A stretch of 64,000 nucleotides of DNA, from NCBI GenBank assembly GCA_051362555.1, contig CM120642.1, positions 11,594,001-11,658,000 of the forward strand. Reading direction: 5' to 3'. Positions 2,155 through 51,932 of the stretch are shown here, one piece after another; within the stretch, counting starts at the first letter, position 1, and each line of letters opens with the position of its first letter. The position numbers were made by a program, and so were the translations under genes. The stretch comes from Lingula anatina. Taxonomy: Eukaryota > Animalia > Brachiopoda. A model generated the notes under the pieces. It worked only from the letters and a program-made list of their open reading frames with translations. It was not told the DNA's origin and made no database searches.

Positions 2155-2902
2155 TCCAATGCTTGCAACCATGCTTCTGATAGCCCACGGTTGTTTGCTG
2201 CCCCACAGTGTCTGGGATATAACAACGAATATGGAAAAGTCACCAAAGAGTTGTGTTTTCCTTCGGAGAAAACTATTATCTCACAGGTTAAGAAGGTTGT
2301 CAAAAAACATAAACTAGGGGCAGTGTTTGTAGCTACAGATAATGATCCCATGTTGAAAAAACTAAAGAAAAGTTTAGAAAAGCTAAAGGTAGGTGTCAGA
2401 GCTTCATGTACTTTATAAGGTTATGTGTGTATGCATGTTGGCATGTTTTAATAAATGGGCATATACACCTGTATGTATGTATGTATGTGTTTTTCATACC
2501 CTCTGCCAGGGTCACAGATTGATTTTTCACTAGATATTCACAGATAGGTCTTTATCCAATTCTTAGCAATTTTCTCTACTGTGTCCATTGAAAATTTGAC
2601 CATGTTTCTGACATGATATTCCTGCATTTTACAAGCCACTATTGTATTGGTCGTGAATGCTAAATGCTTGAAATACTCATAGAAAGTATAACATTTTTTT
2701 ATTCCAGGTAAAAACAGTGGTGACAACTCATCCCAGTGATTCTCCACACATGGATCTGGCCATCCTTGGGAAGGCAGACTTCTTCATTGGGAACTGCGTC
2801 TCAACATTTTCTGCATTTGCTAAAAGAGAGCGTGATGCCAAAGGGTTGCCCTCAGCATTCTGGGCATTTAAGGAACAGAAGGTGCAGCATGAAGAATTGT
2901 AA
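2155..2902 (+). CDS. POFUT1: GDP-fucose protein O-fucosyltransferase 1, last two coding exons (2155-2388, 2708-2902); upstream exons lie outside the window
   Basis: Spliced translation [22 protein letters not shown]...LCFPS...AVFVATD...|VKTVV...[30 protein letters not shown]...HEEL* matches the POFUT1 C-terminal motifs (ASPQC, VATD, DLxILGxADxFIGNCVSSFTAFVKRERD). It ends in a KDEL-like ER retention signal (HEEL). AG/GT sites are canonical and in frame. Confidence 0.95.
2498..2590 (+). repeat. Dispersed repeat of about 100 bp (further copies near 7881-7998 and 9788-9906)
   Basis: Shared motif ACCCTCT(A/G)CCAGGGTCACAG(G/A)TTGATT(T/C)TTCACT(A/C)GATATTCACAGATA(G/T)GTCT in the 2498 and 7881 copies, with a more diverged version at 9788. 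Confidence 0.6.
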
Positions 2903-5156
2903 TGATTTAAGGACAATTTTAAAAACAGTGGTCAGCTTGCATGTTTCTGTTTTTTTTTCATTTGACAAGATAAGTGCTTTTCCATTTAGTGAATGATAAT
3001 TTGGCAAAAATAAAGTCAAATATTTTTTTTGGTCTTCAGGGAAAGTAAATGACGGTGAAAATTTTGGTCAAATAATTTTGTGTCAACTCTAGTCTCAAAC
3101 TTGTTAGAAACAAATTAGTGCATTTACTTGCTGATACAATTTTCTCGTCTTTTTTTTGTAATAGATTAAAACTGAATCTATTATTGGAAGTGGCTGCCTA
3201 TTGCATTTGAGAAAAACAAAGTTGTATTCTCTATGATGAGGTTTATTTTTTAACACTTAAATCTTATGTAAACTCATTATTTGATATTTAATATTTACAG
3301 CTTTTTTTATTCTGTTGAATGGTGTTACATTGAGCTGGTCATGAACACATTGGATGGCGATTTTTGCCAGGTCGTTCATTTAGATGTCAGTAATAAAAGA
3401 GCATCATTAAAAAGACCAATAGGTACCCAGTATGTTCAGTCCAGTTGGATGATAACTTATTTCCAGTTTTATCTGCTTGTATTAAAAAACATTCCATGTA
3501 TTTTTGTTAAATTTCAAATCTCGTCTTCCACCAATTGTTACAATGTCAGTTAAGCAGTTAGATGGAAATTAGTATGGTAAATACAACCATAAGTCATTTA
3601 ATAAATTCTTATTATTATCAATGCATATGTTGTTAAAATAATTCTAGTGCCTGTTTGTCTGGATTTTATTTGAAATTTTTTTTCATTATTCCTTTAACAC
3701 TGGCGTAGACAGGATATGAACAAGGTGGGGGCAGAGGATTGTGTAAAAAAAAAAATTATTTACCCCCCCCCCCCCCCCCCAACTTCCTCAGACTGGATCA
3801 TGTCTTTTTATGAATTTTTGGATCATTATAAAGATAAAGGACAGAGTGAAATTTAGCTCCAAATCATCAAAGATCCATCTTTCTTCTTCTTCAAATAATC
3901 TTAACTATTACAAATCAATAGAGATAACCCTAGAACAAATTAGAGTTAGAAGGCACTTCCGGAAAAATTGCCTAATAATTTGATGCTGCTAGATTTACAT
4001 TAGCCAAAGGTTTTGGCTGTATTGTTGCAAATTACTGGAGGGTGGCATATATGTATTGTGGCAGTTGTTATACAGAGGCACCTAACGCATTTGAAATGTC
4101 TCTGAAGGTATTTGACATTAAAACAATTGTGTTTTATTTCTCAACTAACCCACTACTGATACTCTAGTTGCACTGTTGTGCGTTCTGAATGAAACTATCG
4201 TTCTGCGTGGATCGATCCAACTCTGCTAGGACTCTCGCTGAATGCAATCAGCATGACTGAATGACACGCCACCTCGAGCAGTTTGGGAGTGATTAACTTT
4301 CTGGAAGTTTTTTCGCTTTATGGAAGTTTTTGTTACTTCGTTTTGAGTGGGACGGAATGCACACAAAAGTTAATCACCCTTTACTAGCTGGTTTATCGTT
4401 AGTTGTACAACTTTGCTTGATTTGAGCTGTTCCTCACCAAGATGACTGGACGTTCGGACTCGGTCAAGAACTACAGAGTGTCACTAAGGAAGGCCGAAAC
4501 TCGGGAGTTTATTGAGGAACAAACGTATGAAAATGTAAATTAAATTATAATCAGGAGAAATCTTATTGTCCAATGATTAGGCTACGTAAAATAATAGAAA
4601 GAAAGAAAGGAACATAAAGAGACAGATAAAAATGACGAAAGGAAGATCTGGAGAAAGAATGATAAAAAGGAACATAACACAAGTGAGCTAAGGAGACAAT
4701 GGCGTGAGCTATAAAATGACTCTTCGAGGATCTTGCAACAAAAGGAAAAATATAAGATTCAGTCTGCGTTGTAATTTTACTACAGAAATAACCATAGTGT
4801 TTTTATTCGATTGGGTTTTGACATATGGCATTTACATGTGCGTTAAACCTGTTTTTTAAAGCTACATTTGTGAATTACTGAGGAATTGAACTGTACAGTT
4901 GACCATAGACTGGTGCAAATATCCACTACCGGTACATTGACAGTCCGTCAGGATGTTCTTGTCCCAACTGCACTCGGTGACAAAGTTCTACTCGTTTCTT
5001 TCTTACTGTTTTTCGTCACTTTAATGACTAGCATGGGCTAAATTCAGTTTTAATTTCAGTCAAAAAATGGAGCATAAATCTAAGCCCACCTCCAGCCTAC
5101 TTGTACAAATGACTATATTTAAGTGAAATGGAAGAACTGATTTCTTGCTCCTTTGT

Positions 5157-8100
5157 CTAATAGTTGACAGTCGGACGTCTGTTATAATGGTGTCTGCGTC
5201 CATAGTTCCAGTTGGCCATGAATCGTCTACGTTGTTCGGCCTCGCGGGCATTTTCCCTTCTGTCTCTTTCTATTTCGTAGGGACTGTCGTCAAATTCCCA
5301 TGTAGACTCCCAAGGTCCCTGACTCTCGTACATTTCATCCATCTCATCCATCTCATAACGCCATCTAGAACTTCGCTTTGAGCGCAGGAAGGCCTTTGCA
5401 GATGCGGCGTCCCTCTTATGAAATTTGTGAAGTCGGTCTACGGAAGGAGAGGAAAAACGGTTACAATACAATGTGTTGCGGAAAGTTAGTAGATCACTAA
5501 ATGGAAGTAAGATTTACTATTTCAGCAAACTACCTCTTAAAGAACTGACTGAAATGAGAAAGGTAACGCAATACTGTTAGATATTTGTTATTTTTACAAA
5601 AAGCTTGTACAAGTAAAGCGACACATTCATGCTTATACGTATGATTTTTATTACAGAAACTTGATTGATTTAGTGACTAATTTGTGGCAACCCATTTTTG
5701 CCATTTTAAAATTAAAGTGTATGGTCGAAGAGAAGACCTTAAAGCGAAGGATGATTGTGAGAGGTATCTAAGAAAACTTGTGTACTTCTCAAAGGCCACA
5801 CCTGAAACGTGTATTTAGGTTGTCATATTACTGCCGCTAAACCCGACACATAATTGCACCTTTGTGTCAAGTAGAATGACTAAAAATACTGAAGAGTATG
5901 ATTTCCCAAAAAATGATATTAGCGCCTATATTTTCTGCTTACCTCCTGTGCTCAAATTAGCAGGCCAAAATTTCGACCAGAAATCTGAAGTAGGTGCAGT
6001 TTTTAAAGGCCTTTCTGCTGCCCAAGAGTTTTAATTTCTTTCTTTCTTTCTTTCTTTTTTTTTTTTTTTTTGTTTTTGGTATGTGTATTTCATTTAAGTC
6101 GTTAAAGAAACTGACACTAGTACAAAAATTTATAAACGTCAGGTCTCTAATTTTGAACTGAGTCTTTCATTTCTAAAGTCGCACCGATAAAGAATGGTAA
6201 TAATGATAACTTTCTTTGTTTATTTTCCAACTTTATTTCATTTATATTATTATTGTAATAATAAATTTTATGAAGTTGTCTATTTAGATTCAAGGGTTTG
6301 TTAATACAAGTATATTGACACGTGTTGCTGAGATATTCATTACAACCTACCCACAACATTTACATTGACGTGGTAACAAAGAATAATTTTTATAATATCT
6401 TAGAAAAAAAAACGTAAATCAGCTAACATGGAAATAATTCTCTTAATGTTCTAGTGAATATTGAATGTACACTGGAGACAATAATGCCAGGTTGGACAAT
6501 GGTATAGAATAAGTAATTAATTCTTACTCTGAAGACTATCAAAACATGGCAACCTGGGTAAAATGTTGTAGAGCTTTTATAGGCAAACAACGTAATAAAA
6601 CGGGTAAAATGTTCTAGATACGTGTTTCATTACCATAAAATCCTTTTGTACGTGACGATGCAAAACGATAACAACTATTTGAATGTTACACAATTAGCTT
6701 TATTTAAACTAACAGAGCAGAATAAGTGAAGCGCTTGTCTGTATGAGTTGTATGAACATGTATACTTCGTGTAAATATGCAGAAGTCGCGTGCCCAAATT
6801 TGCATAGTCAACCGAAAAATTAAGCAACAACGGTAAGCATTTTGGTATTCCACTTTTTCGACAAAAAAGAAAAAAACGATTAAGTCGTCTGTGCCTGGCA
6901 ACTTGTGACAGAGCCACACAATAGCCATACAAGAGATGGTTGTTGCTTAATTGATGACCAGACCCCGTGTAAGTTTTATGCTTTTGGTCACGGACCAATA
7001 CTGCTTGCTCATTCCGTACCAGGGCTGAGAAAAAAAGTAACATACAAATTTGTGTATGCAATTATGGGTAACAGTAGTTGTGATTGTTTTGAGAACTTCT
7101 TTCCGTCAGCAGATACCAAACAATAAGTCTCGCCTGCCATCGGCATCGTGGCTCGGTGATTAACCTGGGATGGAGCTGTGTGCTGTGAAGTTCATTGCCA
7201 AAAGATTCGTTTATAATTAAATTATAAGTGATAAAATTATTTTATAACAAACTACTACCGCACCATGTGGTCAGAGAGTAGCTTTCTAAGACGACATTTC
7301 CAGCGCATAGGGTTTCACCCTTATTGGGATTTGGAGTTTCAAAGAATTTTTCGAAAAGACTATCAGAAACAAATCTTATCGATAACTTCGCGCCAATTCT
7401 TTGGTCATTTACAGAATCTACTAACAACTTGTACACGTAGCAATCTCTCACAACTTGACTTCTGCATCGATCAGGTTGCGCCAAGAAGTTATATAGATCA
7501 AATACATTAAATTTAAAACAAACAAAATTATTTCTTTTGAAGATCCGATATGAAGAAGAGCATATCCGTCTACTAGAACTTCTATTGGTTTTTAAAGTTA
7601 AAACTTTTGATTCTAAATAGACTAATTGATAAACGATTAAAATGAATACAATTAACTAGGATAGAAGATAATATATATTTTGTGTCCTAGATTGATGTGA
7701 CTAAAATAATGAACAAGTCCTTTCAAAATTACTTCGAGTGTGGGCAGAGAGCCGTCTCATTAATACCCGGATTAAAACGATTGCACAAAAAAAAAAAAAA
7801 AAACGCAGAAATAATAAACAGTCACATTCTGAGTTATGGCATTTTAAAAACGTCGGGCCATTAATCTCTGGATTTAACAGACCCTCTACCAGGGTCACAG
7901 GTTGATTCTTCACTCGATATTCACAGATATGTCTCTGGTTAATTCATGACACGATTCTCTTCTTTGTGGCGGTGAAAGTGCAGATAATTAATCTGCAGCT
8001 CTCTTCCCATTCTAACTATATTACTACCGTCAGATTACAGGACGCTTGCAGAAAATAAAATAGCATGGCAACAACACTTACCCTCTTTGTCGACACTTGC

Positions 8101-8861
8101 TGCTATGGCGTTGGTTATCAGCACTAGAAACAGAGAAAAAATGTATGTGAACATCGCTCACCGCGTTTTAATCGTTCACCAAACACGTGTACAAAAACCC
8201 TGTTCGGATCTACACACAACAGCCTCATTATAGTCTGGGCTTAATGATGATGCAGTACCCTGCCATAAAGTATGCACTACGAACTATGGTCTGGATTGCA
8301 AAGAGGATTGTAATCGTGTCTTTTTTTTCTGAAATTAAAAACTAAAAAATTGAATTGTTTTAGACCAAAATTTAATTACAGAATCGAATAAAAAGGAAAG
8401 CCAGACAAGAAAACGTTCAGCGTGACAGGATAGTGTATTGAACTTTCTTGAATAGTACCAATCACTTTATGATGCTATGGGCTAAGGAAACCTTTACGGT
8501 GAAGACAAAATTCTTGTAGAATTTGCTAAGAAAACCATTTCCACCTTTCAAATAATGAAGAATCGTTTATAAGGTGTAAACCAAAATATTGCTGCAAATA
8601 ATAATTATAATTATAATAAAACAAATTCCTGAATATCCTAATTAAAAATCACAGTGATCGCATACATCTAAAGGCAGGAACATTAAACTGTATCTCCGCG
8701 TGGAGATAAGAGGAAAAAGATTAATAAACAAATTAAGTTGAAATAAAGTTTTCATTTTGGTAGCTAGTTAAGCCATGTACAAATTGCTAATTTTTTTTCA
8801 ATTTACGTTACGTACCAACAAAAGCCATGATGGCAAAGGAAATCAGCAGCGACTTCTCCAT
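5157..8861 (-). CDS. Secreted Glu-rich precursor, UCMA/Gla-rich-protein-like, 122 aa; exons 8816-8861, 8082-8123, 5157-5437
   Basis: Three phase-1-joined exons with canonical sites (G|gtacgt, tttctag|, G|gtaagt, ttccgtag|) give MEKSLLISFAIMAFVVLITNAIAASVDKEDRLHKFHKRDAASAKAFLRSKRSSRWRYEMDEMDEMYESQGPWESTWEFDDSPYEIERDRRENAREAEQRRRFMANWNYGRRHHYNRRPTVNY*. It has a hydrophobic signal peptide, a furin-type RSKR site and an upstream TATAAA. The gene model is well supported; the family assignment is inference. Confidence 0.8.
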
Positions 8862-8970
8862 CTTTGCTCGAAAAACGGCTCCAAGTCTGTTTGGGTCTCT
8901 CGGCTTGCGCACTAGAGCGAACACGCAGTGGGCTGTCTTAAATAATATGAGCTAACTTGTTTGGGGCGAA

Positions 8971-8976
8971 TTTATA
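8971..8976 (-). promoter_or_regulatory. Candidate TATA box of the Glu-rich precursor gene
   Basis: CCTATAAATT on the minus strand, about 110 nt upstream of the ATG at 8861. Confidence 0.5.
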
Positions 8977-9477
8977 GGACAGACTCTGTTTTTCGTGCCC
9001 CATGTGACTTTAACCTGTCTTTACACATAAGTGGAATCTGATGTATTCAATCTTTTTTTACTGAGTAATGGAATTAGTTTACACAACTGTTGGTCTCCTG
9101 TACAACATAGTTCAAAGGCAATGAAGAGGAAGGAGTTTTAATGATTTTACTGCAATCTTCTTTACCACATTGAAAACCTGCATCTTCAAACTGGGGAATA
9201 TTTTTTCGATGACAGTGTATTCTTCAAAGACTTAAGTTAGGTGAAAGAAAAAATACAGTAATACGATGGCGATGCAGTTGGTATGATGATAATAATGATA
9301 ATAGTTTGTTTATAGTAGTACGTCGGTCAGAAAAATGTGCGAAACGTGGCAGTTTGTCAATTAAAAGGTTAGGACTTTAACTATAATTGGAAGGTTTTTT
9401 TTATTTTCATAAAGGATAATTCATAAAGTAAGAGCAAAAAAGTGTGAATATTTGAATTTAAGCGTTTGATCGACAAG

Positions 9478-10281
9478 TTAAAAAAACAAAAGGCAACAAA
9501 GCTGTCAAATGTACAGACACAAAGCAGAAAATAACGATACTAGTGTACAAAAAAGTTTTATTGTCAATTTTTCAAAGTCACACACTGAAAATGCCAATAT
9601 GTTAAAGATAAAAATTTTACAAAAAAAAAAAAAAAATGCATACATTCAATTAAAATAATACAATTAAGTTGGTTTTCCAATTTAGGCTGTATTTTAGTTT
9701 GAAGAATTATTCTTTCAAGTAAGAGCATAATAAGTAACACTTTCCTTTCCTTTGTTTATTAGTGTTTATGGTGACATTGCAAAAAATTACCTTCTACTAG
9801 GGCCACAGGTTGCTTTTTTATTAGATATTCACAGATATGTTTCTGGCTAATTTATGGCCCATTTCTTCGCTGTCGTGTCAGAGAAAAGTGCACATAATTA
9901 ATCTGCGGGTTTTTGTCAATTTTGATGCAGTATAACTTACAGTTAACAGCATAATCACCACCAATTTCTACATATGTACTAGGGGTAAAATGGACATAAA
10001 AAATTAACTAGCATAGGGCCTCAGCACCATGGTATTTTAAAGTCATACACTGAAATGACAAAAATGAAAAAAAAATTTAAAAATCGAAAATTCGTACTTG
10101 GCCTGTAATTTACCCCAGTTATGCCATAAATCACCCACGTAAGGTTGAGGGTAATAAGTCACTTCGACTTTCATAAATGGCGTTAACGATGAAAAGTGCA
10201 GGACGACGGCGTCGCAGACGACGACGACGGACGCAAGAGATGGCTACACGTGAACGTACAAACACACTGTATCTGTACATA
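9478..10281 (-). mobile_element. Non-autonomous Helentron-like element, family B, short copy in reverse orientation
   Basis: The reverse strand begins ATGTACAGATACAGTGTGTTTGTACG, followed by (GTC)n repeats, and ends TGTGTCTGTACATTTGACAGCTTTGTTGCC plus a T run. The termini and an internal CCATGG-containing unit match 34844-40310. Confidence 0.7.
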
Positions 10282-16319: not shown

Positions 16320-19300
16320 TCAGTCCACCTCCGTGAGGTCCCCAAAGAGTCCTCGCACCTCTAAGGTGGATGCCACGTCCATGACCAGCCTGTGGAGCGA
16401 TGCCTGGTGGAGAATCTCATCCTCTGGAAGTGGGGGCTGGGTTGTGGGGTAATAACTGGGACCCTGGGGGCAGAGAAAGAAATGTGTTGTTAAAAAATAC
16501 TCTTTCAAATGTTTTCTGAAAATCTGCATTGAGAATAAAGAAAGAGTCTTTTGTTGGTGTTTACAATCTGTGAATGTGTAAGCTGACTTGTTGCTTAATA
16601 TATCTCCTATCTCGGGTAGCAAAAAAGCAAAAATTACTTCATCAACATGCTTTTGATAGTTCATTGTTCAGATATATGCTTATTGTGATTGTTGCGTGTG
16701 TGCAAGGTGTCAGTGTGTGTTAAACTGACACTTCTAACATGTTAAGTGCCACGTACATACAGTGTGTTTGTTGTGACAGTGCTAAGTATCACAGTGTGTA
16801 AGACAAACCAATGCATTCAATGTGATAATGCTCTCTTACCTTGAACCCTCTGTGTAACCTTAGAGTTATCCAGCAGAATATGAACCTCAGCATCAGAAGC
16901 CTCAGAAAGTCATCACCATAAAACTGCATAAATGCATGATCTGAAAGCAAAAGATAATTCTTTACCAATAACTAAATTCCCTAAGTGCTGTCACATCCAA
17001 TCTTACTAAAAAAGTTTGCTGGCTGAAAAAAAAAGCTTATATTTCAGATAGGAAAAAAATGGAGGACAGACAGATATTAAATTAAGAACAAAAACAGTCT
17101 TTTTGTCAGAGACTCACCTAATGACCTTGACCTAGAAAACACCTTGCTAGCTTCGGCCATGAACTTTTCAATGTGGCCTTGACATTTGTCCCACAGTGCA
17201 ATAGGAATGTCAACGATGCTGCAGACATAGCAAAACCCCATTAGAGGGCTGTGAAGGAACATTGTGAACAGATTACCTTTTTGATGTTGATCTAAAAGAA
17301 AGGATTTATCATGTATTATATGTAGCACCTCTTCTGCAAATATATTTTGTAGGTGTTTTTTATTCTATCGTTGGCTGAAACAAAAGATATAACTTTTTCT
17401 CAAAATATACTTCAGCATAGCCAATAATACTACTACTACTACTAGTACTACTAGTAAAAGAATTGTACTGGCGGGTGAAATTTGGCTTAAATGAAACAAC
17501 TCTTGAGTCAGTAGTTCCACATTGGGATCAGTTGCAAGTGGGTTTCTGAGATTGGCCAAAAAGTACATTTATTTATTTATTTTAGTTCATGTACATGATT
17601 GTAAATAATGAATATTGTTTCTCACCTTGCATTGTTGCAGGCACATTTTCTGGTGACAATAAACATGCCATAGGCTGACCAAACAAATTTGGGAAGTTCT
17701 GAAGAAGATGAATCACTATACACATGTAGATTTTATTTCATACAAGTCTATTTTATAAAGTTAAAATATAAATTTGCTATATATGTTTTATATTCCTGTA
17801 CATTCTATTGTCAGTGTTTTGAAAAGAAAAATGCGAACGCAGGTACGTTTGCCTTCTATCTCTCTCTCACACACAACCACACACATACACACACACACTA
17901 CATTAATAATCTCAGAAAGAGAAAACACAAAATGTTTGCAGCTACCAGTGGGCAATCTCACCTGAAAGGCAGTACTGTTATCACTGTCAATGATAAGAAA
18001 CAAAGGCTTTCTGGTGAAGGGATAGACATCTCCTGGATGAAGACTGCAAGAAAAAACTTAACATTTATAGCTGGACAGTCAGGAGATCAAATATTTTTAA
18101 GAGAAAAGAACTTGAAACTGTTTAAGACTCAAGATAAGATTTTCATTTTTTTGGTCATTTTCGTTGCTTTTATTTATTATTTCTGTGCTTTTATTTGCAT
18201 TATCTATTAGTTATGGAACACAAGTGTGACTGCAATTTTAATTAAAATATCAGTGCTTAGTAAGCATGGTATTGAGCATATTTGTCCTTCCTGCAAAATT
18301 CTTAGACTGCATTCCCATAAACATATCGTAATCAAATCAGCTTGTCTGATAGGACCCTTTGAGTAACTTGACTATCATTAATTATCCACTAGCAGCTTGA
18401 GTAGGTGTGCCAGACATGTGAGCCGTTTACACCATAAACATATCGTATTAGCTGGATCGTTCTTACTCTACAGGGCTTCTTTCTCAAGTCCTTTCAGAGA
18501 AATCAGCTTGTCTGATAGGACCCTTTGAGTAACTTGACTATCATTAATTATCCACTAGCAGCTTGAGTAGGTGTGCCAGACATGTAAGCCGTTTACACTG
18601 AACTCAATTTAGCGAGAATCCCTGCAGACTTAGATCAATCCAGCTACTACGCTGGGCTTATAAGAAGCCCCCCTTAGTTTTAGGTCACGTTCAATCCCAA
18701 TAACAAACTGTATACCCACCAGTGCATCTCTTTGATATGAGCAGGTCTTTTTGTTCTGTTGTTGAAGGCATCTCCTTCTCTTTTGTTGTTTGTAACAACC
18801 CCTCCAAAGTCAAATGCCACTGAAAATTTTGTATAACAATAAAAACAATAACCATCATTCATGGTCCATATGTATATATTTTCATGCACTGTCAGGTAAT
18901 TAATTCAAAATGCTTTAAATCTTTTCATCATTTGATGAGTGGAAATGATCCATATTTAGTTTTCTTCTGTTCATCAATGGTCTTAATTTAAAATTAGTTT
19001 TTAAAAAATGGCAAGAAACAAGTAAAATAGTGCTTCTCCAGATACCATTACAAAAATGCACTCACCATCTTCTGTCTCTTTCATGTTCCCCAAACTACCA
19101 TCAGCAGACACATAGACTAACATAGCGCCCCCTGGGGGCAGTTCCTTGAACCCTGATGCCAGGAATGTGTATAACTGACTAAAGGTAGGTTTATACAGGA
19201 GATATTTGTGAGGGTTGTCCCTTTTGTTGATTTTATCTCCATTTTCCTGCAATAAACAGATCACTTGTCAACTCAATAAGACTTTAGTATTCTTGAATGC

Positions 19301-22300
19301 AAGCTGTTAGCTTCTGATACATAAATATTTCCAACAGATGTCCTTTTACATATTCTTGGCATTTGCCATCTAGTATTATATAAAAAATTCATCTATAGCT
19401 CTACATTGGAATATCTGAATTAATTTATACAATTCTTCAACTCTTATATCAAACTCAACAAAGGAAGAGACTTACAAATCCAGGTTTATTCCCTGGGGCT
19501 GGGGACTGGTCATAGAGCTGATTGGATAAATCTTCCTGGGGTTCTCGCTCTAGGGTCTGGAGCATTCTGAACATGTCTAATGTAAGTTCACTAAATTTTA
19601 CCTGCAAAAACAGAGATACATGCATTTCTTTTTAAATTTACTGATTACAAAGAATCTTACATATCCATTTTAACTACTCGGTGTGTGTGTGTGCGCGTGT
19701 GTTTGTGTATGTGTGTGTGTTTCTATACAAAGGCATCTGAATGTATCTGTCGTCTTTTTTTTCTACTTTTGTATTATATTTGCCATGAAATGTGTATAGG
19801 TCAAAAGCTGCAAAAGTGGTAAGGTACCATCATGATCTTAATCAGCTATTATCATTTATACTCTTATCCACTGTTATTATTGACATAATCATTTAATCTC
19901 TCTCCCCCCTCACACCTGTTCGTAACAATTGCCCACTATGAGTATCTCCTGTAGCGTGAGGTAGACAGAGGACCCCTGCTCCATAGGTGGCGTGTTTAGT
20001 GGTGTAAGGCGATGTGATAATACAATAGGTGAGGAGTCCACATCTACAACATTGACAGGGACATCTGCCTACAGATATCAAAGTAAAAAAATTATCACAA
20101 GTTAAACAACCAGGAATTAATATATATGTAGAATTTTAAATATGTGTTCCTTTTATGCATAAATTTTATAAAGGCTTGGAATTTATGTTGTAGATAAATA
20201 ACCTTGGTTATACATAGGATACCATAAAATTGGTATAACTGCACTTAAAGGTTCCTTTATTGTTCTCATCTCACAACAGCAAATGATTAATGCATGACAA
20301 AATAACATATAATTGTGTAAATGTGGTATCATTATTGCACTCTTTCTATTTTCAACCAACTTTCCAGGAAATAATATCCCTGTTCAGTGAAATGTCAATA
20401 AGCCTCCTTTGAAGTGGCTCAGTTTGAAGCACTCCATTAAATGTCTCAATACTTCATCAATTGATATTGGATTGAGGAAAACCTAGCTATTATAAATAAT
20501 CTGGCAACAAAATTGATATTTTCACACAAAAAGCAACAGTTTATCCCATAATAGTTCTACCAGTTCTGGACCTCAAATTCTTTCCTTCACAGAGGTTGTT
20601 TTACTGTTTTATCATAAATGGTGGGAACAGGCATTTTGATAACATTTTATGTTAGACATTTGAATGGCCTCTGCACACACAGTCAGAATTCATAAGTGAG
20701 AAAGATATACTTAATTTACTGAAAATGCACATGTAACCTAGTAAGGTTTCTGAGTAAAATATATAATAACCTTGAAAAATTAGCACTGATTTCACTCTCT
20801 TAGAAAAAAAAAACTCACATAAAACACTAAACTGCTGCATTTCAACTTTACAAGAAACTAACAAAAATTCCCAATCATGTCATAAATCAGTTGCAAGTAA
20901 GAAGTCATATCAAAATAAAATTTTTTCTCAGTTTATTTCTACACCATGGAACTTCAAAATGCAGCATGTGGATAAACCACACAAGCTTTTTATCTAATAT
21001 GTAATACATGAAACTCATACATAACACAATATGCATGCAAAACCAATATCTTAAGTGATCAATCCCTGTCATAGCCAATATAGGGGAACGTATCAATATA
21101 CTGCTGGATGATAGCAGAGTACTGCTTGTCAGCAAGTCAGAATTAGTCTGAATACTTGAAGGAAATGATACGTTCAAGTAAAAACTTCTTACTCATGCAT
21201 CTGTTTCCAATAGGGAAAAAAGCTGTGGTCCAAAAAAGTCTTCTTTTGTAATTAAGTAGCAAAAATCCAGCTGTAAATATTTCAAAATTGCACTTTAAGC
21301 TACATAATTCTACTACACAGTATTTCTATTTGAGATAGCTGATTTATGATGCTCTAGACAGAGTAAAACGGATACTAATCTAATACTTCCTAGTTCACCA
21401 AGGATTGTCATTTGCTACATTTAGCAAACAGAATATGAAAAATAACCAATTACGAAAAAAAAAAGAGTACTGCAATTTCCCAAAGGTAAAGAAGTCATCT
21501 GCAAATCTACGTCTTCATGCCACTAGTCAATAACTTACTCAAAATTTCATATGGTGTCTTGTTAATAATGATGCCTATTTCCAAAGCTGAGGAATTCATT
21601 AATATGGGACTTTTTCAGGAAAAGAAATGCATGGTGCATACGCACTATAAAGTATAAATGTTCTGACATGATGAAAGTCAACAAAAACGCACACACACAC
21701 ATACACTTATGTGTCAATCACTAACAAATTTGATGCATGTAAATATATCCAATATTTATTTGTACTACCATTGTCAAGTTTGTTATATCCTGATAACTAT
21801 TTGAATAGTCTATTAAAATTGACACACTGGAAATTTTTAACTTTAAGAATACATGTACCCTGCTCCTCACAGTAAAATCCATGCAGAAGAACCCTCATTT
21901 TGACCAAAGAAGATAATAAGATAGAGCATACCAATATTAATACAATAGAGGTCTAATTAAAAACATCATGCCTGTAGGTTCTTCATACAAGAGCTGGGTT
22001 CCTAAAGGGCAGATTCACCTTTTGGCCAAACTCATAAGCGATCTGTTGTGTAGGGAATTAATCAGACAAGACCATGAATACTTGACAGAGCACCCTTGGT
22101 TGAAATAACCAATATGTTGCTGGTTGCCAGCATTTAGGGGCCTGTCTTTAACCACATACTTATACAGTCTATAATTTGATAAGCTTCCAGCTTAGAGCTA
22201 AAATTAGATCACTTTCAATCGTATATGTGGCCATTTGTATGGCGAGTCTTCTGAGACCTATGGCTCTTTACAGACCCATAATTTCCTTTATTAATGCGGC

Positions 22301-34340: not shown

Positions 34341-37300
34341 CATAGCATTTGAGCAATGTCTGTTTTTCATAGAAAGTCATGCCTGTAGCCAGCAATTTCA
34401 AAGGGAGGGGGTTCGTTTTCTGAAAAAGTGGACCTTTTACGATAAAATCTTCAAGTACATAGATCAAATTTTACCTAGAGTGGACCTTTTCCCAGCAAAA
34501 AGGGTGGTTCTTTCGAACCCCCCGAACCCCCCCTGGCTACGGGCCTGAAAGTAGTTATTAGTATTTAATTGTACACATACCAGGAAGCAGCTGATAAATT
34601 TTCATACATTTTAGATTGAAAAGAAACTAGAACCCCTTCCAGAAGAAGTGAGGCAAGAAGCTAATTTCAACCCTGTTGGTCGCGAGAAGACTAACTGCAC
34701 TATATTTCTGGGGTATACATCTAACCTGATTTCCTCAGGAGTCAGAGAGACCATCAGATATCTAGTGCAGCACAACATGGTAAGCTAGTGGATGAGGACA
34801 GTGCTTTGATGGCACATACCCTTAGGTTTTTTTGTTTTTTTTTATGTACAGACACAGATGTGTCTGTACATATAGCCATCATCTCCGTCTGTCGTCGTCG
34901 CCGTCGTCGTCGCCGTGCACTTTTACCGATAACACGATAAGTGGAAAACCTTTTTTCTTTTGTCTTGAAACTTACAGAACTGATGAATATTCATAATCCG
35001 CAGGTCAAGTTCGAAAATCAGCATGATCGGTCCATTTTTAGGGAAGTTATGCTGTTTTTTCACTTTTTTCAGCATTTATGCAACACCGTAAACACGATAA
35101 GTGAAAAACTGTTTTACCTTTTAACTTGAAACTTACAGAACTGATGAATATTTGTAATACGCAGGTCAAGTTCAAAAGTTAGCATGATCTGGCCATTTTT
35201 AGGGAAGTTATGATGTTTTTTTCACTTTTTTCAGCATTTATGCAACACCGTAAACATGATAAGTGAAAAACTGTTTTACCTTTTGGCTGGAAACTTACAG
35301 AACTGATGAATATTTATAATAAGCGGGTCGAGTTCGAAAATCAACTTGATCGGGCCATTTTTAGGGAAGTTATGCTGTTTTTTCACTTTTTTCAGCATAT
35401 ATTCAACCCTGATAGCGCAATAAAAGAAAAACAGATTGGCCAATTGTCATTATTCTCACAGGAGTGGTCAATCTTACTAAAACGCAGGTTGAGTTCGAAA
35501 ATCAGCATAATCGGGCCATTGTTTTAAAAGTTATGCTGTTCTTTCACATTTCCTCAATTTTAGTTTTTAGGCATGTTAACAGTCTCATTATTGAACTAAT
35601 AAGATACGTAAAAGTGTTTGTTTGATATTTCCTGCAACTTTACAACATTGTTAGTTGATTATGTAAAAATGATAGTAAACTTGTTATCATGTATTGTGTA
35701 ATAAAGTGTCAAAATTGGAAAAAAAGTCATATCATTGCAGTTTGTTAGATTCAATCATCCACTTAACTATGTTCAGAATCTCAGAATACAGGAAATTGGA
35801 CATTTAACACTGTTCTATTGATACTTTTCCCATCTCATCAATTTTCTTCGTTGAACATATAAAAATGGCAGTAAACTGTTTATTTTGTTTTATGTTAAAA
35901 AAAGTATTAAAAATGGAAATAAACCCATTTCAGAACAGTGCTGTCTTGTTTACATTTTGGCATTTTCAAGGTGTGACTTTGATATTCCATGGGCCTGAAG
36001 ACCTTTGCTAGTCACATTTCCTGAATATCCATGATACCAATATTTTATTATTAAAAATTGATGGTTATTATGCTGTTGAACATTATGTAATGTTGTATCA
36101 AAATTTGAAGGAACCCCTATTTTGGGCACTGCTCCCATGATGACCATTTAAGGAAAATGATGTCACTTACTGTTCTCAAACTTACAGGAAAGAAACATGG
36201 GACTAAAATACAGCTTCAGTAGGCAATGCAGTCTGTTTGCTAATTTTTTTTCTGGCAATCTTACAGTTTTTCGTGAAAATTTGATTTTTCACATATTGGC
36301 ATTTTCAAGGTGTGACTTTGAAGTTCCATGGGCCTGAAGACCTTGCTAGTCACGTTTTCTGAATGTCCATGTTACTAATATTTTATTATTAAAAATTGAT
36401 GGTCATTATGCTGTTAAACATGTAATGTTGCACCAAAATTTGAAGAAACCCCTATTTGGGCATCGCTCCCATGATGACCATTTATGGAAAACCATGTCAC
36501 TTACCTTTCTCAAACTTTCAGGAAAGAAACATGGGACTAAAACACAGCTTCAGTAGGCAATGCAGTCTGTTTGGTAAATTTTTCTGTCAATTAAACAGTT
36601 TTTTTGTGAAAATTTAATTTTTCACATTTTGGCATTTTCACTTAGAACCTCCACGGGCTTGAAGACCCAAGCTAGTCACATTTTCTGAAAATCCATGATA
36701 CATTTATTTTATTATTAAAAATTGATGGTCATAATGCTGTTAAGCATTATGTAATGTTGCATCAAAATAGAAGAAAACACAATTTTTGGTGCTGCTGCTA
36801 TGATGACCATTATGGGAAAACCCTGTTACTTATTACTGTCAAACTTTCAAAAGAGAAGCACAGGACTAAAATGTATCCCGAGTTGGAAAAGCAGTCTAAT
36901 TGGCTTCTTTTTCTGGAAGTTATACATTTTAGTGAAATATTCATTTTTATCGTTTTGGGATATTCATTGTGGGATTTGGAGCTCCCATGGACATGAAGCC
37001 GAATGGTAATTAAATTTTCTACATGTCCGTCTATTTATAGTCAATAATCAAAAATTGGTGATAATTATTCTGTTATTTATTATGTAATGTTACATTAAAA
37101 TTAACAAAAATATTTTTGCACTGCTACTACAAACATTATGAAAAGAAAAACTGTGTTACTTATTATTATTGTACCACCAGCGTTAGCGCTGGCGGTACAC
37201 ATGGTTTTAGTCCCGTCCGGATCGTTCCGCCGGCTCCGCCGGCTCCGCCGGCTCCGCCGGCTCCGCCGGACGGCTACCGTTACCGCTTCTCCTCCTAGAC

Positions 37301-40300
37301 GGTAAGAGCCCCCATACCCATCTCTTGGATTTAGGTCACCTATAATCTCAGCTCGTTCCACGTAAAATTTGGGCTTTGTCGGTTTTGGGGTCTAGGTGTG
37401 GCACTCATTGCAATGCACCCTTGTCTAAAAATGGCAAAATTAAATGCTAATTATCTACCCTACGGAAGGAATTATGGGAAAAATTTCTACAGACGGCTTT
37501 CCAAAAGTCATATGTGTAGATTTCAAATATGCCCTTGGATTTGACCTTTGACCTTTATTTCAAGGTCAAACGGGCCAAAATTTTCAAAAAAATGAATTTT
37601 TTTACGAAAAAAAAATTATTTGCCCTGTTATTCAGACACCACACAGACTTAACCAATAATATTATTGGAAAGTGTTACCCTTCAGGTCATCTTTCATATC
37701 CGTGAATTTGGGGTCAATCGGTGCATTTTCACGAGAGTAGCGGCCATAAGATACCGAAACTGAAAACTGTCTCTAATTCGGGAACCGTTAATGCTAGAGA
37801 CCCATTCTTTTTTGCATTTTGTAGAGCATGTAAAGCCCAACACTGGAAGTGGTCTCGGTTTTTTTGTATTCCATACGGTTTTCGAGTTACGCTGTATCAA
37901 AAAGTACATATTGGTGGTGAAAGCAAAATGTGCAGTACGGTAATGGATAATAAATTTTGAAATCCATAAAAATAAAACATAAGGCTTGGCAAAGCAGACA
38001 ACTTGTGGTCAAAAATGACATTATTTCATCAAATGTGAACATCTGGAACTTCAGAGCACCTCCCATTTCGAGAATTTTGACCAAAATGACCTTTTCTTTA
38101 TTTTAATTAATTTTTTCTGTAGGAAATTTATGGCACATTATGGTAACTCCAAAATTATAACATTTAGTCCCTTATATCTCCAAAACTGGCAGAGATAGGT
38201 CCATAGTTACTATTGAAGTTGAATAGGAAGTCATATACTGGCAATCTAAATGTGACCTTAAAATTGACCTTTGACCTACTTTTCACCGTGAACTGAACTT
38301 TGCAAATTTTGCTTCCCTTTTATCTCCAAAACTGGCAGAGATAGGTCCATAGTTACTATTGAAGTTGAATAGGAAGTCATATACTGGCAATCTAAATGTG
38401 ACCTTGAAATTGACATTTGACCTACTTTTCACCATGAACTGAACTTTGCAAATTTTGCTTCCCTTTTATCTCCAAAACTGGCAGAGATAGGTCCATAGTT
38501 ACTATTGAAGTTGAATAGGAAGTCATATACTGGCAATCTAAATGTGACCTTAAAATTGACCTTTGACCTACTTTTCACCATGAACTGAACTTTGTAAATT
38601 TTGCTTCCCTTTTATCTCCAAAACTGGCAGAGATAGGTCCATAGTTACTATTGAAGTTGAATAGGAAGTCATATACTGGCAATCTATATGTGACCTTGAA
38701 ATTGACCTTTGACCTACTTTTCACCATGAACTGAACTTTGCAAATTTTGGTTCCCTTTTATCTCCAAAACTGGCAGAGATAGGTCCATAGTTACTATTGT
38801 AATTGAATAGGAAGTCATATACTGGCAATCTAAATGTGACCTTAAAATTGACCTTTGACCTACTTTTCACCATGAACTGAACTTTGTAAATTTTGGTTCC
38901 CTTTTATCTCCAAAACTGGCAGAGATAGGTCCATAGTTACTATTGAAGTTGAATAGGAAGTCATATACTGGCAATCTGTATGTGACCTTGAAATTGACCT
39001 TTGACTTACTTTTCACCATGAACTGAACTTTGCACATTTTGGTTCCCTTTTATCTCCAAAACTGGCAGAGATAGGTCCATAGTTACTATTGAAGTTGAAT
39101 AGGAAGTCATATACTGGCAATCTGTATGTGACCTTGAAATTGACCTTTGACCTACTTTTCACCATGAACTGAACTTTGCACATTTTGGTTCCCTTTTATC
39201 TCCAAAACTGGCAGAGATAGGTCCATAGTTACTATTGAAGTTGAATAGGAAGTCATATACTGGCAATCTAAATGTGACCTTGAAATTGACCTTTGACCTT
39301 TTTACCATGACCTGAATTTTGCAAATTTTGCTTCCCTTTTATCTCCAAAACTGGCAGAGATAGGTCCATAGTTACTATTGAACTTGAATAGGAAGTCATA
39401 TATTGGCAATCTAAATGTGACCTTGAAATTGACCTTTGACCTACTTTTCACCATGAACTGAACTTTGTAAATTTTGGTTCCCTTTTATCTCCAAAACTGG
39501 CAGAGATAGGTCCATAGTTACTATTGAAGTTGAATAGGAAGTCATATACTGGCAATCTGTATGTGACCTTGAAATTGACCTTTGACCTACTTTTCACCAT
39601 GAACTGAACTTTGCACATTTTGGTTCCCTTTTATCTCCAAAACTGGCAGAGATAGGTCCATAGTTACTATTGAAGTTGAATAGGAAGTCATATACTGGCA
39701 ATTTACTGTGACCTTGAAATTGCATTTTGACCTACCTTACGATGAACTTAACTTTGATTGTACCATTTTTAGGCATATATATTTTTTGCATATTTTGAAA
39801 ATTCTTGTTGATTGCATTTTTACAGCTTGTCAAGCAGAAGACTGGTGGCTGTGACCCTTATTTTGTGTATGTGGGGGTCTATACGAATGTGATTGCTCCA
39901 GCTGGTGGTACAATATTCGGAGGCGGTATCGCCTCTCTGATCCTCTAGTTTTTAACTTACAAGTATGATTTTTAGGAATGGCATGCAGTTCAAATTAGAA
40001 AGCCAGCTCTATTGGGTTATCATTTATTATTGAATTTATGCAATTTTGTATGAAATTTTCATTTTTCTCATTCTGCCATTTTGAAAGTGTGAACTTGAAC
40101 TCCCATGGGCCTGAAGCCTTATGCTTGTAACACATTTTACTTACGTCAGTATTACCTGTTGAGCATAATTAAAATTTGACGTTGAATTTGCAGCTAAGTA
40201 TAATGTACTTTTGCACCAGAATTGACAGTAGCCTATTTTGTGAATTGTTATTTTCTGATTTTTGTCTGTACATTTGACAGCTTTGCTGCCTTGTTGTTTT

Positions 40301-43040
40301 TTTTTTTTTTGTAAAAAAAACATAAATAAAGTGCTTGTGTTGTATACATATGTTGACACATTTCAAAGATGGACTGAATTGGTGGAAGTGGTGGACTGAA
40401 AGGTGTAAAATCGTAAATGATATTGTTCCCAGAAATGGCCAAATTCATCACTGAAATAACTATGTGTTTTGTAGTAAACAGAGTATGTTGATGTTGTATA
40501 AATGACTTTATTTACTTATTCTCATATTGTTAAGTAAAGTGCAGGGTTGCCAACATTATTCAGTGCACAAAATTTGTAGATCTGTTGGTTGACCTGCTGG
40601 TAATACATGTAACAGAATTACATAAGGGTACCTGAAATCCGAGATAATTAATATTAAATGTTTTGTATAGTACACCTGAATACATAGAGTTTTTTATACT
40701 GTGGATGTGTGCTTAAAATAACAATTTTACTGTGTCAGGTGGATGTTTTGGTGACCACAGCTGGGGGTATTGAGGAAGACTTCATCAAGTGCATGGCTCC
40801 AACTTACCTAGGGGACTTCCACTTGAAAGGCAAGGAGCTGAGAGAGAAGGGCATCAATAGGATTGGGAATCTACTTGTTCCTAACAATAATTACTGTTTG
40901 TTTGAAGACTGGATAATGCCAATCTTAGACCAGATGCTGGTAGAACAGCAGGAACAAGTAAGAAGTTCAATGCTGATTGCAATTGGTAATAAGAGGCCAG
41001 TCCCATTTAGTTTTATTGTACAATTTTAGAAAATGATCAATTTTTTTAAAATTTTTGTGCATCACACTTTGGTTTGGTAAGTAATTAGCTATCGAGCAAA
41101 AACAGAAAAATAACAGTGGGACTCTAGATATATATTAATCCGAAAGAAAGGTTTGAGGCAAATATCATTGCATGTTAAAATTTCCCTTGGTTACACACAT
41201 GAATTTCTGCTGTTTAATAAAATAATTATTTCTGCAGAAAGTGAACTGGACACCATCAAAAATGATTGCAAGATTTGGCAAAGAGATTGACAACCCACAG
41301 TCTGTTTATTACTGGGCCTACAAGGTAAGACAAATCAATCACCATGATTAGATATTAATTGTATACTAAACATTTCCTAAAAATGTATCCCTTTTGGTAC
41401 TTGCTCCAGAATCATTATTGATATTTACAATTTTTTGCTAGGAATTTTTCAAGCAAAAATACTAATTTGAGGTGTTTAAATTTAAAGCATTTTTTTTCAT
41501 GAAGTAGCACATGCCATGTATTTTGAGTGCTCACACTTTATAAGATAATTAGTGATGTTTTCAGAGATTTACTTTGTTCAAACAAAATATTTCATTGTTC
41601 TTCCAGAATAACATTCCTGTATTTAGTCCTGCTCTTACTGATGGCTCTTTAGGAGACATGCTGTATTTTCATTCCTATAAAAACCCTGGTCTGGTTCTGG
41701 ATATTGTTGAAGGTTTGTGAACACAAAAAGCTTAGTTTTCTCTTTTACAAGGTTAAAGTACAGGTGTAATTTGTTTGCCATTGCATGTTGTGTCTATCCC
41801 AGAGTGTATTGCAGTAGGTTGATTTGAAATTTTTAGATTGTACATGCTTACATTACACATTCTTCTACATGTATTTCCAGACATACGTCGGATGAATAGC
41901 CAGGCGATCTTTGCGCAAAACTCGGGAATGATAATTCTTGGTGGGGGCCTGGTGAAACACCATATCTGCAATGCTAACATGATGGCAAGTATATAATAAA
42001 TATGCTGTCAAAAACTATGATCAATAGCAATGTCAGGGTTTCAGGAAATATAGATGAACTTAAGTCTAACCTATAAATACAGGGTATGTAACATTTCTGT
42101 AACATCTGCTATATATCTGTCATTATATCCATTACATGTGGTTATTATTTTTTCCCCAGAAATAAAAATCACATTTTGATAATGTTTTATATGCAGTAGC
42201 TTTTATACCCACGTGTATTTGTGGATTGGTGTCAGTAATTATTGTGATTGGGAGAAGATCCAGTGATTGTGTTAGGTTGGAAATGTAAAACACATTCAAG
42301 ATGCTGTATGCATTCATCAGTGCCATACGCATACAGTTACATATAAAATATAGGGTTTCCTTAGTTTATACTACCTTAGGAATAAGGCACTCTTTGTGCA
42401 AACTTTTGTACAGTCCTTATATTATCTGATGTGGTATGGTATTGGGTTGAATTTTGAGATAGAACGTGCATATTTTGAAAGTTATCATGCATTTAATTTA
42501 CTTTTGACTTGGTTTCCATTTTTCAGAGGAATGGAGCAGATTTCTCATTATTTGTGAATACTGCCCAAGAATTTGATGGCAGTGATTCTGGAGCTAGGCC
42601 AGATGAGGCTATCTCCTGGGGAAAGATAAAGAAAGATGCTAAACCTGTGAAGGTACATTTTTTCAGAATATCAACAAATGACCGTTTTTGTGTATTCAAC
42701 TCTATTTATACCTTTATTTATACACAGGTGTGAGAATTTTGTTTGTCGAATTTTGAATTTTGATGTGTCGATCATGAGTTTATTTTATCACAAAAATGGA
42801 CCTTTGTTCTGTGATATTATTCTCATCTCTCTTATACATATATATAACAAACTACAATGCAGAATCTTTATATTTACGTATGCAACTATCAGATAAAAAT
42901 CCATCTTGCAGGTGTATGCAGATGCCAGTCTTGTGTTTCCTCTGCTTGTTGCTGAAACATTCGCGAGGAATTTCCCAATTAAAAACGGAGATAGAAGTCT
43001 GGGAGAAGGCACATCGAGCAAGAAAAGCAAACTATCTTGA
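33530..43040 (+). CDS. DHPS: Deoxyhypusine synthase; coding exons 33530-33730, 34615-34779, 40739-40957, 41238-41324, 41607-41712, 41881-41984, 42527-42652, 42912-43040
   Basis: Motifs [129 protein letters not shown] (catalytic Lys region) and [17 protein letters not shown]. Confidence 0.97.
34378..34547. mobile_element. 170-bp MITE with 15-bp TIRs and a 5-bp target-site duplication
   Basis: CATGCCTGTAGCCAG ... CTGGCTACGGGCCTG, flanked on both sides by AAAGT. Confidence 0.7.
34930..35545 (+). repeat. Tandem array, about 161-bp unit, about 3.7 copies
   Basis: GATAAGTG at 34936, 35096 and 35258; repeated AAACTTACAGAACTGATGAATATT...CCATTTTTAGGGAAGTTATG. Confidence 0.85.
35949..37000 (+). repeat. 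Tandem array, about 335-bp unit, about 3 copies (another partial unit near 40060)
   Basis: Units begin TTT(C)ACAT.TTGGCATTTTCA at about 35949, 36287 and 36620, and share CCATGGGCCTGAAGACC and TTATTAAAAATTGATGG. Confidence 0.8.
37161..39948 (+). mobile_element. Non-autonomous Helentron/Helitron-like element, family A, younger copy with an expanded satellite
   Basis: GTACCACCAGCG-TTAG-CGCTGGCGGTAC (37171-37198), (GCCGGCTCC)n, the 146-bp array, GCTGGTGGTAC (39901-39911), hairpin GAGGCG-GTAT-CGCCTC, and terminal CTAG plus T's. Confidence 0.85.
38178..39750 (+). repeat. Satellite-like tandem array, 146-bp unit, about 11 copies
   Basis: CTCCAAAACTGGCAGAGATAGG starts at 38178, 38324, 38470, 38616, 38762, 38908, 39054, 39200, 39343, 39489 and 39635. 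Confidence 0.95.
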
Positions 43041-45844: not shown

Positions 45845-45906
45845 CTTGACTGTGGAGGTTGTTACCTTTAATGCAGTAGAGTAATGACAGCGTCTGTCCC
45901 TTTCCC

Positions 45907-45945
45907 CTTTTATAGGCCCCAGCACCCTGGTGTTCAGTGCGTGAT
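45907..45945 (-). promoter_or_regulatory. Core promoter of Gly-rich copy 1: ATCACGCACTGAA motif plus TATA box
   Basis: The minus strand reads ATCACGCACTGAACACCAGGGTGCTGGGGCCTATAAAAG; the same sequence is present in copy 2. Confidence 0.65.
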
Positions 45946-51832: not shown

Positions 51833-51858
51833 ATCACGCACTGAAGATACTATAAAAA
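51833..51858 (+). promoter_or_regulatory. Core promoter of Gly-rich copy 3: ATCACGCACTGAA plus TATAAAAA
   Basis: ATCACGCACTGAAGATACTATAAAAA, with an Inr-like TCATTC about 30 nt downstream of the TATA. Confidence 0.65.
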
Positions 51859-51932
51859 AGAAAGACGCAGATGCTGTCATCATTCGACTTAATTGCCGTT
51901 GCGCAGTAACTAAGCTAACCCCCACAGTCAAG

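What the first reader, a model, noticed from the sequence alone, without database searches (positions are those of the whole stretch)
5157..8861. Invertebrate secreted precursor resembling the vitamin-K-dependent Gla-rich protein (UCMA/GRP) and MGP
Seen: three phase-1 exons encode a signal peptide, a propeptide ending AKAFL-RSKR, and a 71-aa Cys-free mature part with 11 Glu and 5 Asp, an ENAREAE motif and a C-terminal W..Y....YNR tail. Established: vertebrate UCMA/GRP has an AxxF gamma-carboxylase docking motif before a furin site, a Glu-rich Cys-free mature chain and an ExxREA...W.Y...YNR end; MGP and osteocalcin share AxxF, ExxRExC and short phase-1 5' exons; molluscs (Conus) have gamma-glutamyl carboxylase. 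Inference: this may be an invertebrate Ca-binding Gla protein that modulates mineralisation, in a family usually described from vertebrates. Caveat: the upstream Phe is spaced F-x7-A rather than the canonical F-x5-A. The ORF track shows only the last exon.
Basis: partly seen in the sequence, partly recalled or inferred. Interest (0 to 1): 0.85.

Follow-up and report, generated by a model that had tools for sequence, protein, structure and literature searches.

The report
Brachiopod secreted precursor resembling bone peptides
This is a real, spliced gene of the phosphate-shelled brachiopod Lingula, active in only some RNA samples, for a small protein predicted to be secreted and cut into a 71-residue peptide; it is built like vertebrate cartilage and hormone precursors, but kinship, vitamin-K modification and a shell role remain unproven.

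Summary
The three exons are Lingula anatina LOC106169425 (XP_013404336.1). Both junctions are read in 3 of 8 RNA runs laid, and none in the other 5. Listed coding differences in those reads are mostly silent (8 of 13).

The Gla/UCMA reading is only partly supported. Layout and size resemble UCMA/GRP, and by eye 7 of 20 residues match the human GRP core without gaps, but composition alone gives that in 8-15% of trials. Pfam, two large protein searches and the Atlas name no relative. The carboxylase's invariant Phe-16 site reads His-Lys-Arg here. The cited Trp is deleted in most reads. The protein is in neither published Lingula shell proteome. Bovine augurin shares as many motifs by eye, also without significance.

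Best reading: an orphan, convertase-processed secreted precursor that likely works like the UCMA/augurin class, probably without canonical gamma-carboxylation. A true invertebrate Gla-rich protein in an apatite-shelled animal stays possible (about 0.18).

The parts
8971..8976 (-). TATA box (TATAAA)
   Evidence: Only TATA[AT]A in 8862-9100; function inferred
8944..8950 (-). Initiator-like element (TCATATT), A at 8948, 28 nt after the TATA; likely start of transcription
   Evidence: 1 of 3 consensus matches in 8862-9100; reads reach at least 8926
8816..8861 (-). Coding part of exon 1 (codons 1-16), first half of the predicted signal peptide
8124..8815 (-). Intron 1, GT-AG, phase 1, 692 nt
   Evidence: spliced in X7, X8, X9
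8082..8123 (-). Exon 2 (codons 16-30), end of predicted signal peptide and start of propeptide
5438..8081 (-). Intron 2, GT-AG, phase 1, 2644 nt
   Evidence: spliced in X7, X8, X9
5157..5437 (-). Coding part of exon 3 (codons 30-122 and stop)
5412..5423 (-).
   Evidence: F35 reads as Ile in 195 of 341 (X7) and 47 of 47 (X9) reads
5385..5399 (-). A43-K-A-F46-L47, the AxxFL motif (fits carboxylase positions -10, -7, -6)
5373..5384 (-). RSKR, predicted furin site (RPKR in the reads)
   Evidence: cleavage inferred
5160..5372 (-). Predicted 71-aa mature peptide: acidic half with a variable DEM repeat and Tyr in acidic context, then a basic aromatic half
5238..5297 (-). E77-A96, the stretch that aligns by eye with human GRP mature aa 32-51 (7 of 20 identical)
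   Evidence: read by eye; null test
5193..5231 (-). RRR-FMANWNY-G-RR, possible amidated short peptide; a 6-nt deletion in most reads removes W106 but keeps NY-G-RR
4508..5156 (-). 3' untranslated region with AATAAA at 4807 and 4513
   Evidence: read depth and molecule ends near 4806 and 4540

Best explanation
This spliced Lingula gene, active in only some RNA samples, encodes a small protein that is predicted to be secreted and cut by furin to release a 71-residue peptide, which likely acts outside the cell as a matrix- or surface-bound regulator in the manner of vertebrate UCMA and augurin, probably without canonical vitamin-K carboxylation. Shown: gene structure, splicing, restricted and high expression, purifying selection, a furin motif kept in diverged reads. 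Inferred: the signal peptide is removed near residue 23-24; convertases cut at K37-R38 and at RSKR; the acidic half (12 Asp/Glu in 36 aa, with Tyr66 and Tyr83 in sulfation-type context) binds Ca2+ or mineral weakly; the Arg/His/aromatic half binds polyanions such as glycosaminoglycans, or a receptor. It may be a very distant relative of the UCMA / augurin / C17orf67 type of precursor, but no tool detects the kinship.
For: Splicing and expression: 3 of 8 runs at about 37-234 reads per kb per million, about 32 times the neighbouring POFUT1-like gene in X8. Depth is zero in X2, X3 and X5, where that neighbour is spliced. TATA plus initiator promoter. 8 of 13 listed coding differences are silent, P = 0.0013 against 20% expected; none hits Glu, Asp or the convertase Arg/Lys. 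Same layout and mature size as GRP (67-74 aa, furin-cut; PMC13204790) and ECRG4 (dibasic- and furin-processed; PMC4287990). By eye, six motif blocks occur in the same order as in bovine augurin, and 7 of 20 residues match human GRP without gaps. The Atlas's nearest cluster by features is chordate DUF4543 (0.82), with Frey and PRAP1 lower: small chordate proteins recalled as secreted.
Against: No relative in 5.8 billion proteins, 1.84 billion representatives (the only other hit is an unrelated repeat protein), Pfam, PDB sequences or metagenome contigs. The Atlas score 0.82 is reached by a third of shuffled proteins, UCMA and augurin are not among the listed sets, and residues 40-123 give no usable named hit. 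The GRP match is within composition noise; my hand BLOSUM62 score against augurin is only about 27-30, not significant. The tissue of the positive runs is unknown, and no binding or processing is shown. The variant table was cut (40 of 166 rows shown).
Confidence: 0.45

Rival explanations
1. It is a true invertebrate Gla-rich protein, an orthologue of UCMA/GRP: carboxylated in the ER through its propeptide, secreted by the mantle, and modulating fluorapatite growth in the shell.
For: Lingula shell is fluorapatite on collagen (PMC4595640 supplement). AxxFL fits carboxylase positions -10, -7 and -6. In the by-eye register, 4 of the 8 Glu of human GRP aa 32-51 face Glu and 2 more face Asp. E..REA followed 10-25 residues later by YNR occurs in 0.02% of shuffles, a post hoc test; that human GRP has YNR at the same distance is recalled, not seen. 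No listed variant removes a Glu, and the repeat insertion adds an acidic unit. Cone-snail carboxylase sites are defined by hydrophobic residues rather than the vertebrate consensus (reference title in PMC4537219).
Against: Phe-16 is invariant in human carboxylase substrates and -17 to -15 are hydrophobic (PMC13187478 section 7); here they are H-K-R. Glu density is 11/71 against 16/74 in sturgeon GRP, there are no EE pairs, and 13 Arg offset the charge. W106 is deleted in most reads. No row among the 65 shell proteins of the 2015 tables fits its length, pI and composition, and its accession has 0 hits in the 2026 proteome supplement (control accession 22 hits). Three coding exons against five. 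Predicted recognition motifs have misled before (periostin).
Confidence: 0.18
2. It is a lineage-specific neuropeptide or hormone precursor: convertases cut at its six di- or multibasic sites and release a short amidated peptide (FMANWNY-amide, FMANY-amide in the deletion allele) that signals through a receptor, the acidic stretch being a spacer.
For: RRR-peptide-G-RR is the textbook amidation frame and appears in 0.46% of shuffles. The deletion keeps NY-G-RR intact. Copy-number change in the DEM repeat fits a spacer. Restricted expression fits a neural or endocrine source.
Against: Motifs of this protein have 0 hits in the supplement of a brachiopod neuropeptide survey that names Lingula 430 times (PMC8557429). 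A two-residue deletion inside a seven-residue ligand is unusual. Single copy only. Few substitutions across the whole mature chain argue for a longer product.
Confidence: 0.2
3. It is a secreted defence or glue peptide: the acidic half masks an Arg/His/Trp/Tyr-rich tail (pI 11.4) until cleavage at RDRR, after which the tail kills microbes or cross-links into mucus, pedicle or periostracum.
For: Sharp charge split with an internal RDRR site between the halves; high level in a subset of samples; no relatives, as is common for such peptides (own knowledge).
Against: Purifying rather than positive selection; no paralogue in the window; absent from shell proteomes.
Confidence: 0.12

Closest known systems
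UCMA / Gla-rich protein (GRP), vertebrates
   Same: Signal peptide, short propeptide, furin site, mature chain of 67-74 aa (PMC13204790). By eye, E77, F78, E84, E91, R94, E95 and A96 match human mature aa 32-51 without gaps (PMC4052551).
   Different: No Pfam or Atlas match; H-K-R at the Phe-16 site; fewer Glu and no EE pairs; near-neutral mature chain; 3 coding exons against 5; reported as absent from invertebrates.
Augurin / ECRG4 (C2orf40), vertebrates
   Same: By eye against the bovine sequence in PMC2698874 supplement 1, in the same order: KR-x-A after the signal peptide, AKxFL, RxKR, W-x5-E-x4-Y, DD-x2-Y-x3-R-x-R, and VNY at or near the end. Similar mature length. It also lacks Phe at -16.
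   Different: Needs several gaps; hand score about 27-30, not significant; no Pfam or Atlas match; 4 exons; Tyr/Asp-rich rather than Arg-rich second half.
DUF4543 (PF15076; recalled as the C17orf67 family), Frey/C11orf94, PRAP1
   Same: Nearest named clusters by language-model features (0.82, 0.77, 0.77); small chordate proteins, recalled as secreted.
   Different: Scores are in the range that shuffled proteins reach; the signal vanishes for residues 40-123.
Matrix Gla protein and osteocalcin
   Same: Small secreted proteins with Ala or Gly at -10 and hydrophobic -7/-6.
   Different: Both have Phe-16 and a disulfide (recalled); this protein has neither. No PDB sequence match at E up to 10.

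Membership tests
Vitamin-K-dependent Gla proteins (vertebrate-type carboxylase substrate) | Phe at -16 within hydrophobic -17 to -15 (PRS1) | tested here: not met
   H36-K37-R38 when A43 is set to -10; the 3-nt deletion allele brings F35 only to -17, and F35 is mostly Ile in the reads
Vitamin-K-dependent Gla proteins (vertebrate-type carboxylase substrate) | Ala/Gly at -10 and hydrophobic -7, -6 (PRS2, PRS3) | tested here: met
   A43, F46, L47; the motif lies one residue closer to the cut than in factor IX numbering
Vitamin-K-dependent Gla proteins (vertebrate-type carboxylase substrate) | Glu converted to Gla in the native protein; carboxylase present in the organism | not testable with these tools
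   Needs MS; no whole genome was held to look for the enzyme
UCMA/GRP | Signal peptide, short propeptide, furin site, 67-74-aa mature chain | tested here: met
UCMA/GRP | Detectable similarity to the family profile | tested here: not met
   0 Pfam families for the whole protein and three sub-regions (filters drop weak matches); not listed by the Atlas
UCMA/GRP | Conserved Glu-rich core, about 16 Glu in 74 aa | tested here: inconclusive
   11 Glu in 71 aa; 7 of 20 identities by eye, reached by composition alone in 8-15% of trials at any register and 3-12% near the GRP register
   Present in the window; W106 deleted in about 82-87% of reads; the vertebrate tail was not seen in any call
UCMA/GRP | Five coding exons | tested here: not met
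   Three here against five
UCMA/GRP | Association with mineralised matrix | tested here: inconclusive
   Not in two shell proteomes, but the mature chain gives few usable tryptic peptides, and Gla or allelic changes would hide them
Augurin/ECRG4 | Hormone-precursor layout with dibasic and furin sites | tested here: met
Augurin/ECRG4 | Significant sequence or profile similarity | tested here: not met
   No Pfam or Atlas hit; by-eye motifs only
Amidated neuropeptide precursor | Peptide flanked by a basic site and Gly-dibasic | tested here: met
   RRR-FMANWNY-G-RR
Amidated neuropeptide precursor | Known family motif, neural expression, peptide seen by MS | tested here: inconclusive
   0 hits in the survey supplement; tissue of the positive runs unknown

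The most novel reading that the evidence does not exclude
It is the first invertebrate member of the UCMA/GRP-augurin lineage, keeping features of both, gamma-carboxylated through a non-canonical propeptide and used by Lingula to control apatite in its shell. Gla-based control of calcium-phosphate mineral would then predate vertebrates or have been co-opted twice from one ancestral gene.
Probability: 0.18. Interest if true: 0.85.

Novelty: new variant of a known kind. Interest (0 to 1): 0.45.

Why it matters
GRP is described as vertebrate-specific (PMC13204790 and PMC4052551 passages). The Lingula genome paper reported no specific similarity to human bone genes and no secreted acidic shell proteins (PMC4595640 passages). 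A GRP- or augurin-like precursor in one of the few invertebrates with an apatite skeleton would reopen whether bone and brachiopod shell share an ancient small-peptide regulator, and would offer a candidate native substrate for an invertebrate carboxylase. The tests are cheap. If it fails them, it is still a well-expressed, selected orphan precursor with no annotation.

Tried and rejected
Artefact or chance ORF: rejected by splicing, selection and the RefSeq match. Exon-2 skipping: would keep the frame, but no such joint is listed. P0003 (E 5e-6): a 608-aa repeat protein matching 20 residues, rejected. Paralogues in the window: none by tblastn. Single-sequence AlphaFold gave long helices, pTM 0.25, and no Foldseek match; uninformative, as are the Atlas structure rows. 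Synteny: the neighbours are POFUT1-like and SCAI; I recall neither beside vertebrate UCMA, ECRG4 or MGP (not tested). No RNA holder was listed by index; 8 of the 9 raw-read runs were laid, X6 was not. No whole genome was held, so carboxylase and paralogues elsewhere were not searched. Paper searches for an invertebrate UCMA, augurin or brachiopod Gla protein listed none, but searches were not discriminating and the library is partial. The original GRP and augurin papers were not held. No computed alignment with UCMA or augurin sequences was made, so those comparisons are by eye and by hand. Earlier scan notes: none relevant.

Full report
1. Observation. Exons at 8861-8816, 8123-8082 and 5437-5157 on the minus strand join through two GT-AG phase-1 introns into 122 codons. 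They give a hydrophobic N-terminus, a propeptide ending AKAFL-RSKR, and a 71-aa Cys-free mature part with 11 Glu and 5 Asp. The last exon matches one database protein at 100%: XP_013404336.1, 'uncharacterized protein LOC106169425' of the brachiopod Lingula anatina, a cluster of one. A TATA box at 8976 and an initiator-like element 28 nt downstream precede it.

2. Expression and selection. Eight of nine listed RNA runs were laid. X7, X8 and X9 (one study) show both junctions with 46-304 reads each. X1, X2, X3 and X5 show no reads on the coding exons, and X4 has two reads in the 3' UTR. The neighbouring POFUT1-like gene is spliced in X2, X3, X5 and X8, so the blanks in X2, X3 and X5 are not for want of the organism; that control was not run for X1 and X4. 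Rough levels are 37-234 reads per kb per million records, about 32 times the neighbour in X8. The tissue is not given. Reads are mostly 90-99% alike, which I take as a diverged population under the same species label. Of the 40 difference rows shown (of 166), 13 lie in coding exons: 8 silent and 5 replacing (T19A, A21T, F35I, S49P, A93T), P = 0.0013 against neutrality. In-frame indels remove W106 plus one neighbour in most reads, add a unit to the DEM repeat, and sometimes remove one Ala of the propeptide. The furin motif survives as RPKR.

3. Search for relatives. None was found among 5.8 billion proteins at near or longer lengths (shorter not searched) or 1.84 billion representatives. Pfam, PDB sequences, metagenome contigs and the window itself gave nothing either. 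The Atlas's nearest cluster by features is chordate DUF4543 at 0.82, a score that a third of shuffled proteins reach; UCMA and augurin are not listed, and residues 40-123 give no usable named hit. The fold model is uninformative.

4. Is it a Gla protein? Structures of human carboxylase define three sites: hydrophobic -17 to -15 with an invariant Phe-16, Ala or Gly at -10, and hydrophobic -7/-6 (PMC13187478, section 7 read). A43, F46 and L47 satisfy the last two; the first reads H-K-R. Bovine augurin also has AKxFL before its furin site without Phe-16 (PMC2698874, supplement passage), and I know of no evidence that augurin carries Gla, so the motif is not diagnostic. GRP has 16 Gla in 74 aa (PMC13204790 and PMC4052551, passages); this chain has 11 Glu in 71, no EE pair and 13 Arg. 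Invertebrate carboxylases may read other signals (a reference title in PMC4537219, passages), so carboxylation is not excluded. The same paper shows that motif-based Gla predictions can fail.

5. Is it related to UCMA or augurin? Human GRP mature aa 31-54 is printed in PMC4052551. By eye, residues 77-96 here align with aa 32-51 without gaps at 7 of 20 identities; 4 of its 8 Glu face Glu and 2 face Asp. A composition-only null reaches 7 of 20 in 8-15% of trials at any register. Against bovine augurin, six motif blocks fall in the same order, but my hand BLOSUM62 score is about 27-30, roughly E 0.3-0.5 for one pair. The resemblance is therefore colinear and spread over two or three vertebrate families of like design, yet nowhere significant. 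I put remote kinship with that group at about even odds, and membership of UCMA as not shown.

6. Shell role. However, no row of the 65 shell proteins in PMC4595640 Supplementary Tables 25-26 (read) fits 122-123 aa, 15 kDa, pI 9.0 and 17% acidic. The accession and peptides have 0 hits in the PMC13425148 supplement (abstract, section 8, supplement part 1 and searches), whose shell proteins are listed by RefSeq accession. These negatives are weak: the chain yields few usable tryptic peptides, and modifications or allelic changes would hide them.

7. Mechanism. Most likely the precursor is secreted and cut at K37-R38 and RSKR, releasing a 9-kDa peptide with an acidic half (pI 4.05; Tyr66 and Tyr83 flanked by 4-5 acidic residues, a sulfation-type context) and a basic aromatic half (pI 11.4). 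It would act as a local matrix- or surface-bound regulator, as described for GRP and ECRG4 (PMC4287990, passages). Cleavage, modification and binding are all inferred. Rivals are a true Gla mineral modulator (0.18), a neuropeptide precursor releasing an NY-amide (0.20; absent from the PMC8557429 supplement, search only), and a defence or glue peptide (0.12).

8. Novelty and verdict. Searches of the held library listed no invertebrate UCMA, augurin or brachiopod Gla protein (listings only; PMC4992253 supplement row only). The founding papers were not held, and bioRxiv supplements were closed. The gene is annotated but uncharacterised. Verdict: a real orphan precursor of a known design, with an unproven but testable link to vertebrate mineral-regulating peptides. 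Interest 0.45; 0.85 if the Gla and shell reading holds.

Noticed in passing
window 45461-45946 (-), 49272-49826 (-), 51828-52274 (+), 56057-56395 (+): Four ORFs for small proteins with a signal-peptide-like start and Gly-Tyr/Phe repeats (GYGGIGGFGKG type); the first two lie in a 4-kb tandem duplication. No Pfam result applies: the two references sent were other frames. The 2026 shell proteome lists 'scale keratin-like' Lingula proteins; identity not checked.
   Followed up: partly
window 2155-2902 (+): Last exons of a POFUT1-like O-fucosyltransferase gene (PF10250), spliced at 2386/2706 in 4 of 4 runs; used as expression control.
   Followed up: yes
window 16320-20068 (-): Exons of SCAI (PF12070 on 19001-19264); the other exons judged by eye.
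   Followed up: partly
window 40688-41029 (+): Exon that reads like deoxyhypusine synthase (by eye, name recalled).
   Followed up: no
window 8859-8864 (-): RefSeq protein starts with two Met; the window reads AAG ATG. An allele or a different 5' exon; no upstream joint was listed in the reads.
   Followed up: partly
window 38168-39756; 34931-35407; 35952-36872: Tandem arrays of 146, about 160 and about 334 bp; short pieces of related repeats at 7881-7996 and 9480-10078 draw many partial RNA reads.
   Followed up: no
runs X7-X9 against X2, X3, X5 over window 2175-3484: The study that expresses the gene also carries a different set of fixed differences in the neighbour gene, so population and tissue are confounded; loss or silencing in other populations cannot be told from tissue restriction.
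   Followed up: partly
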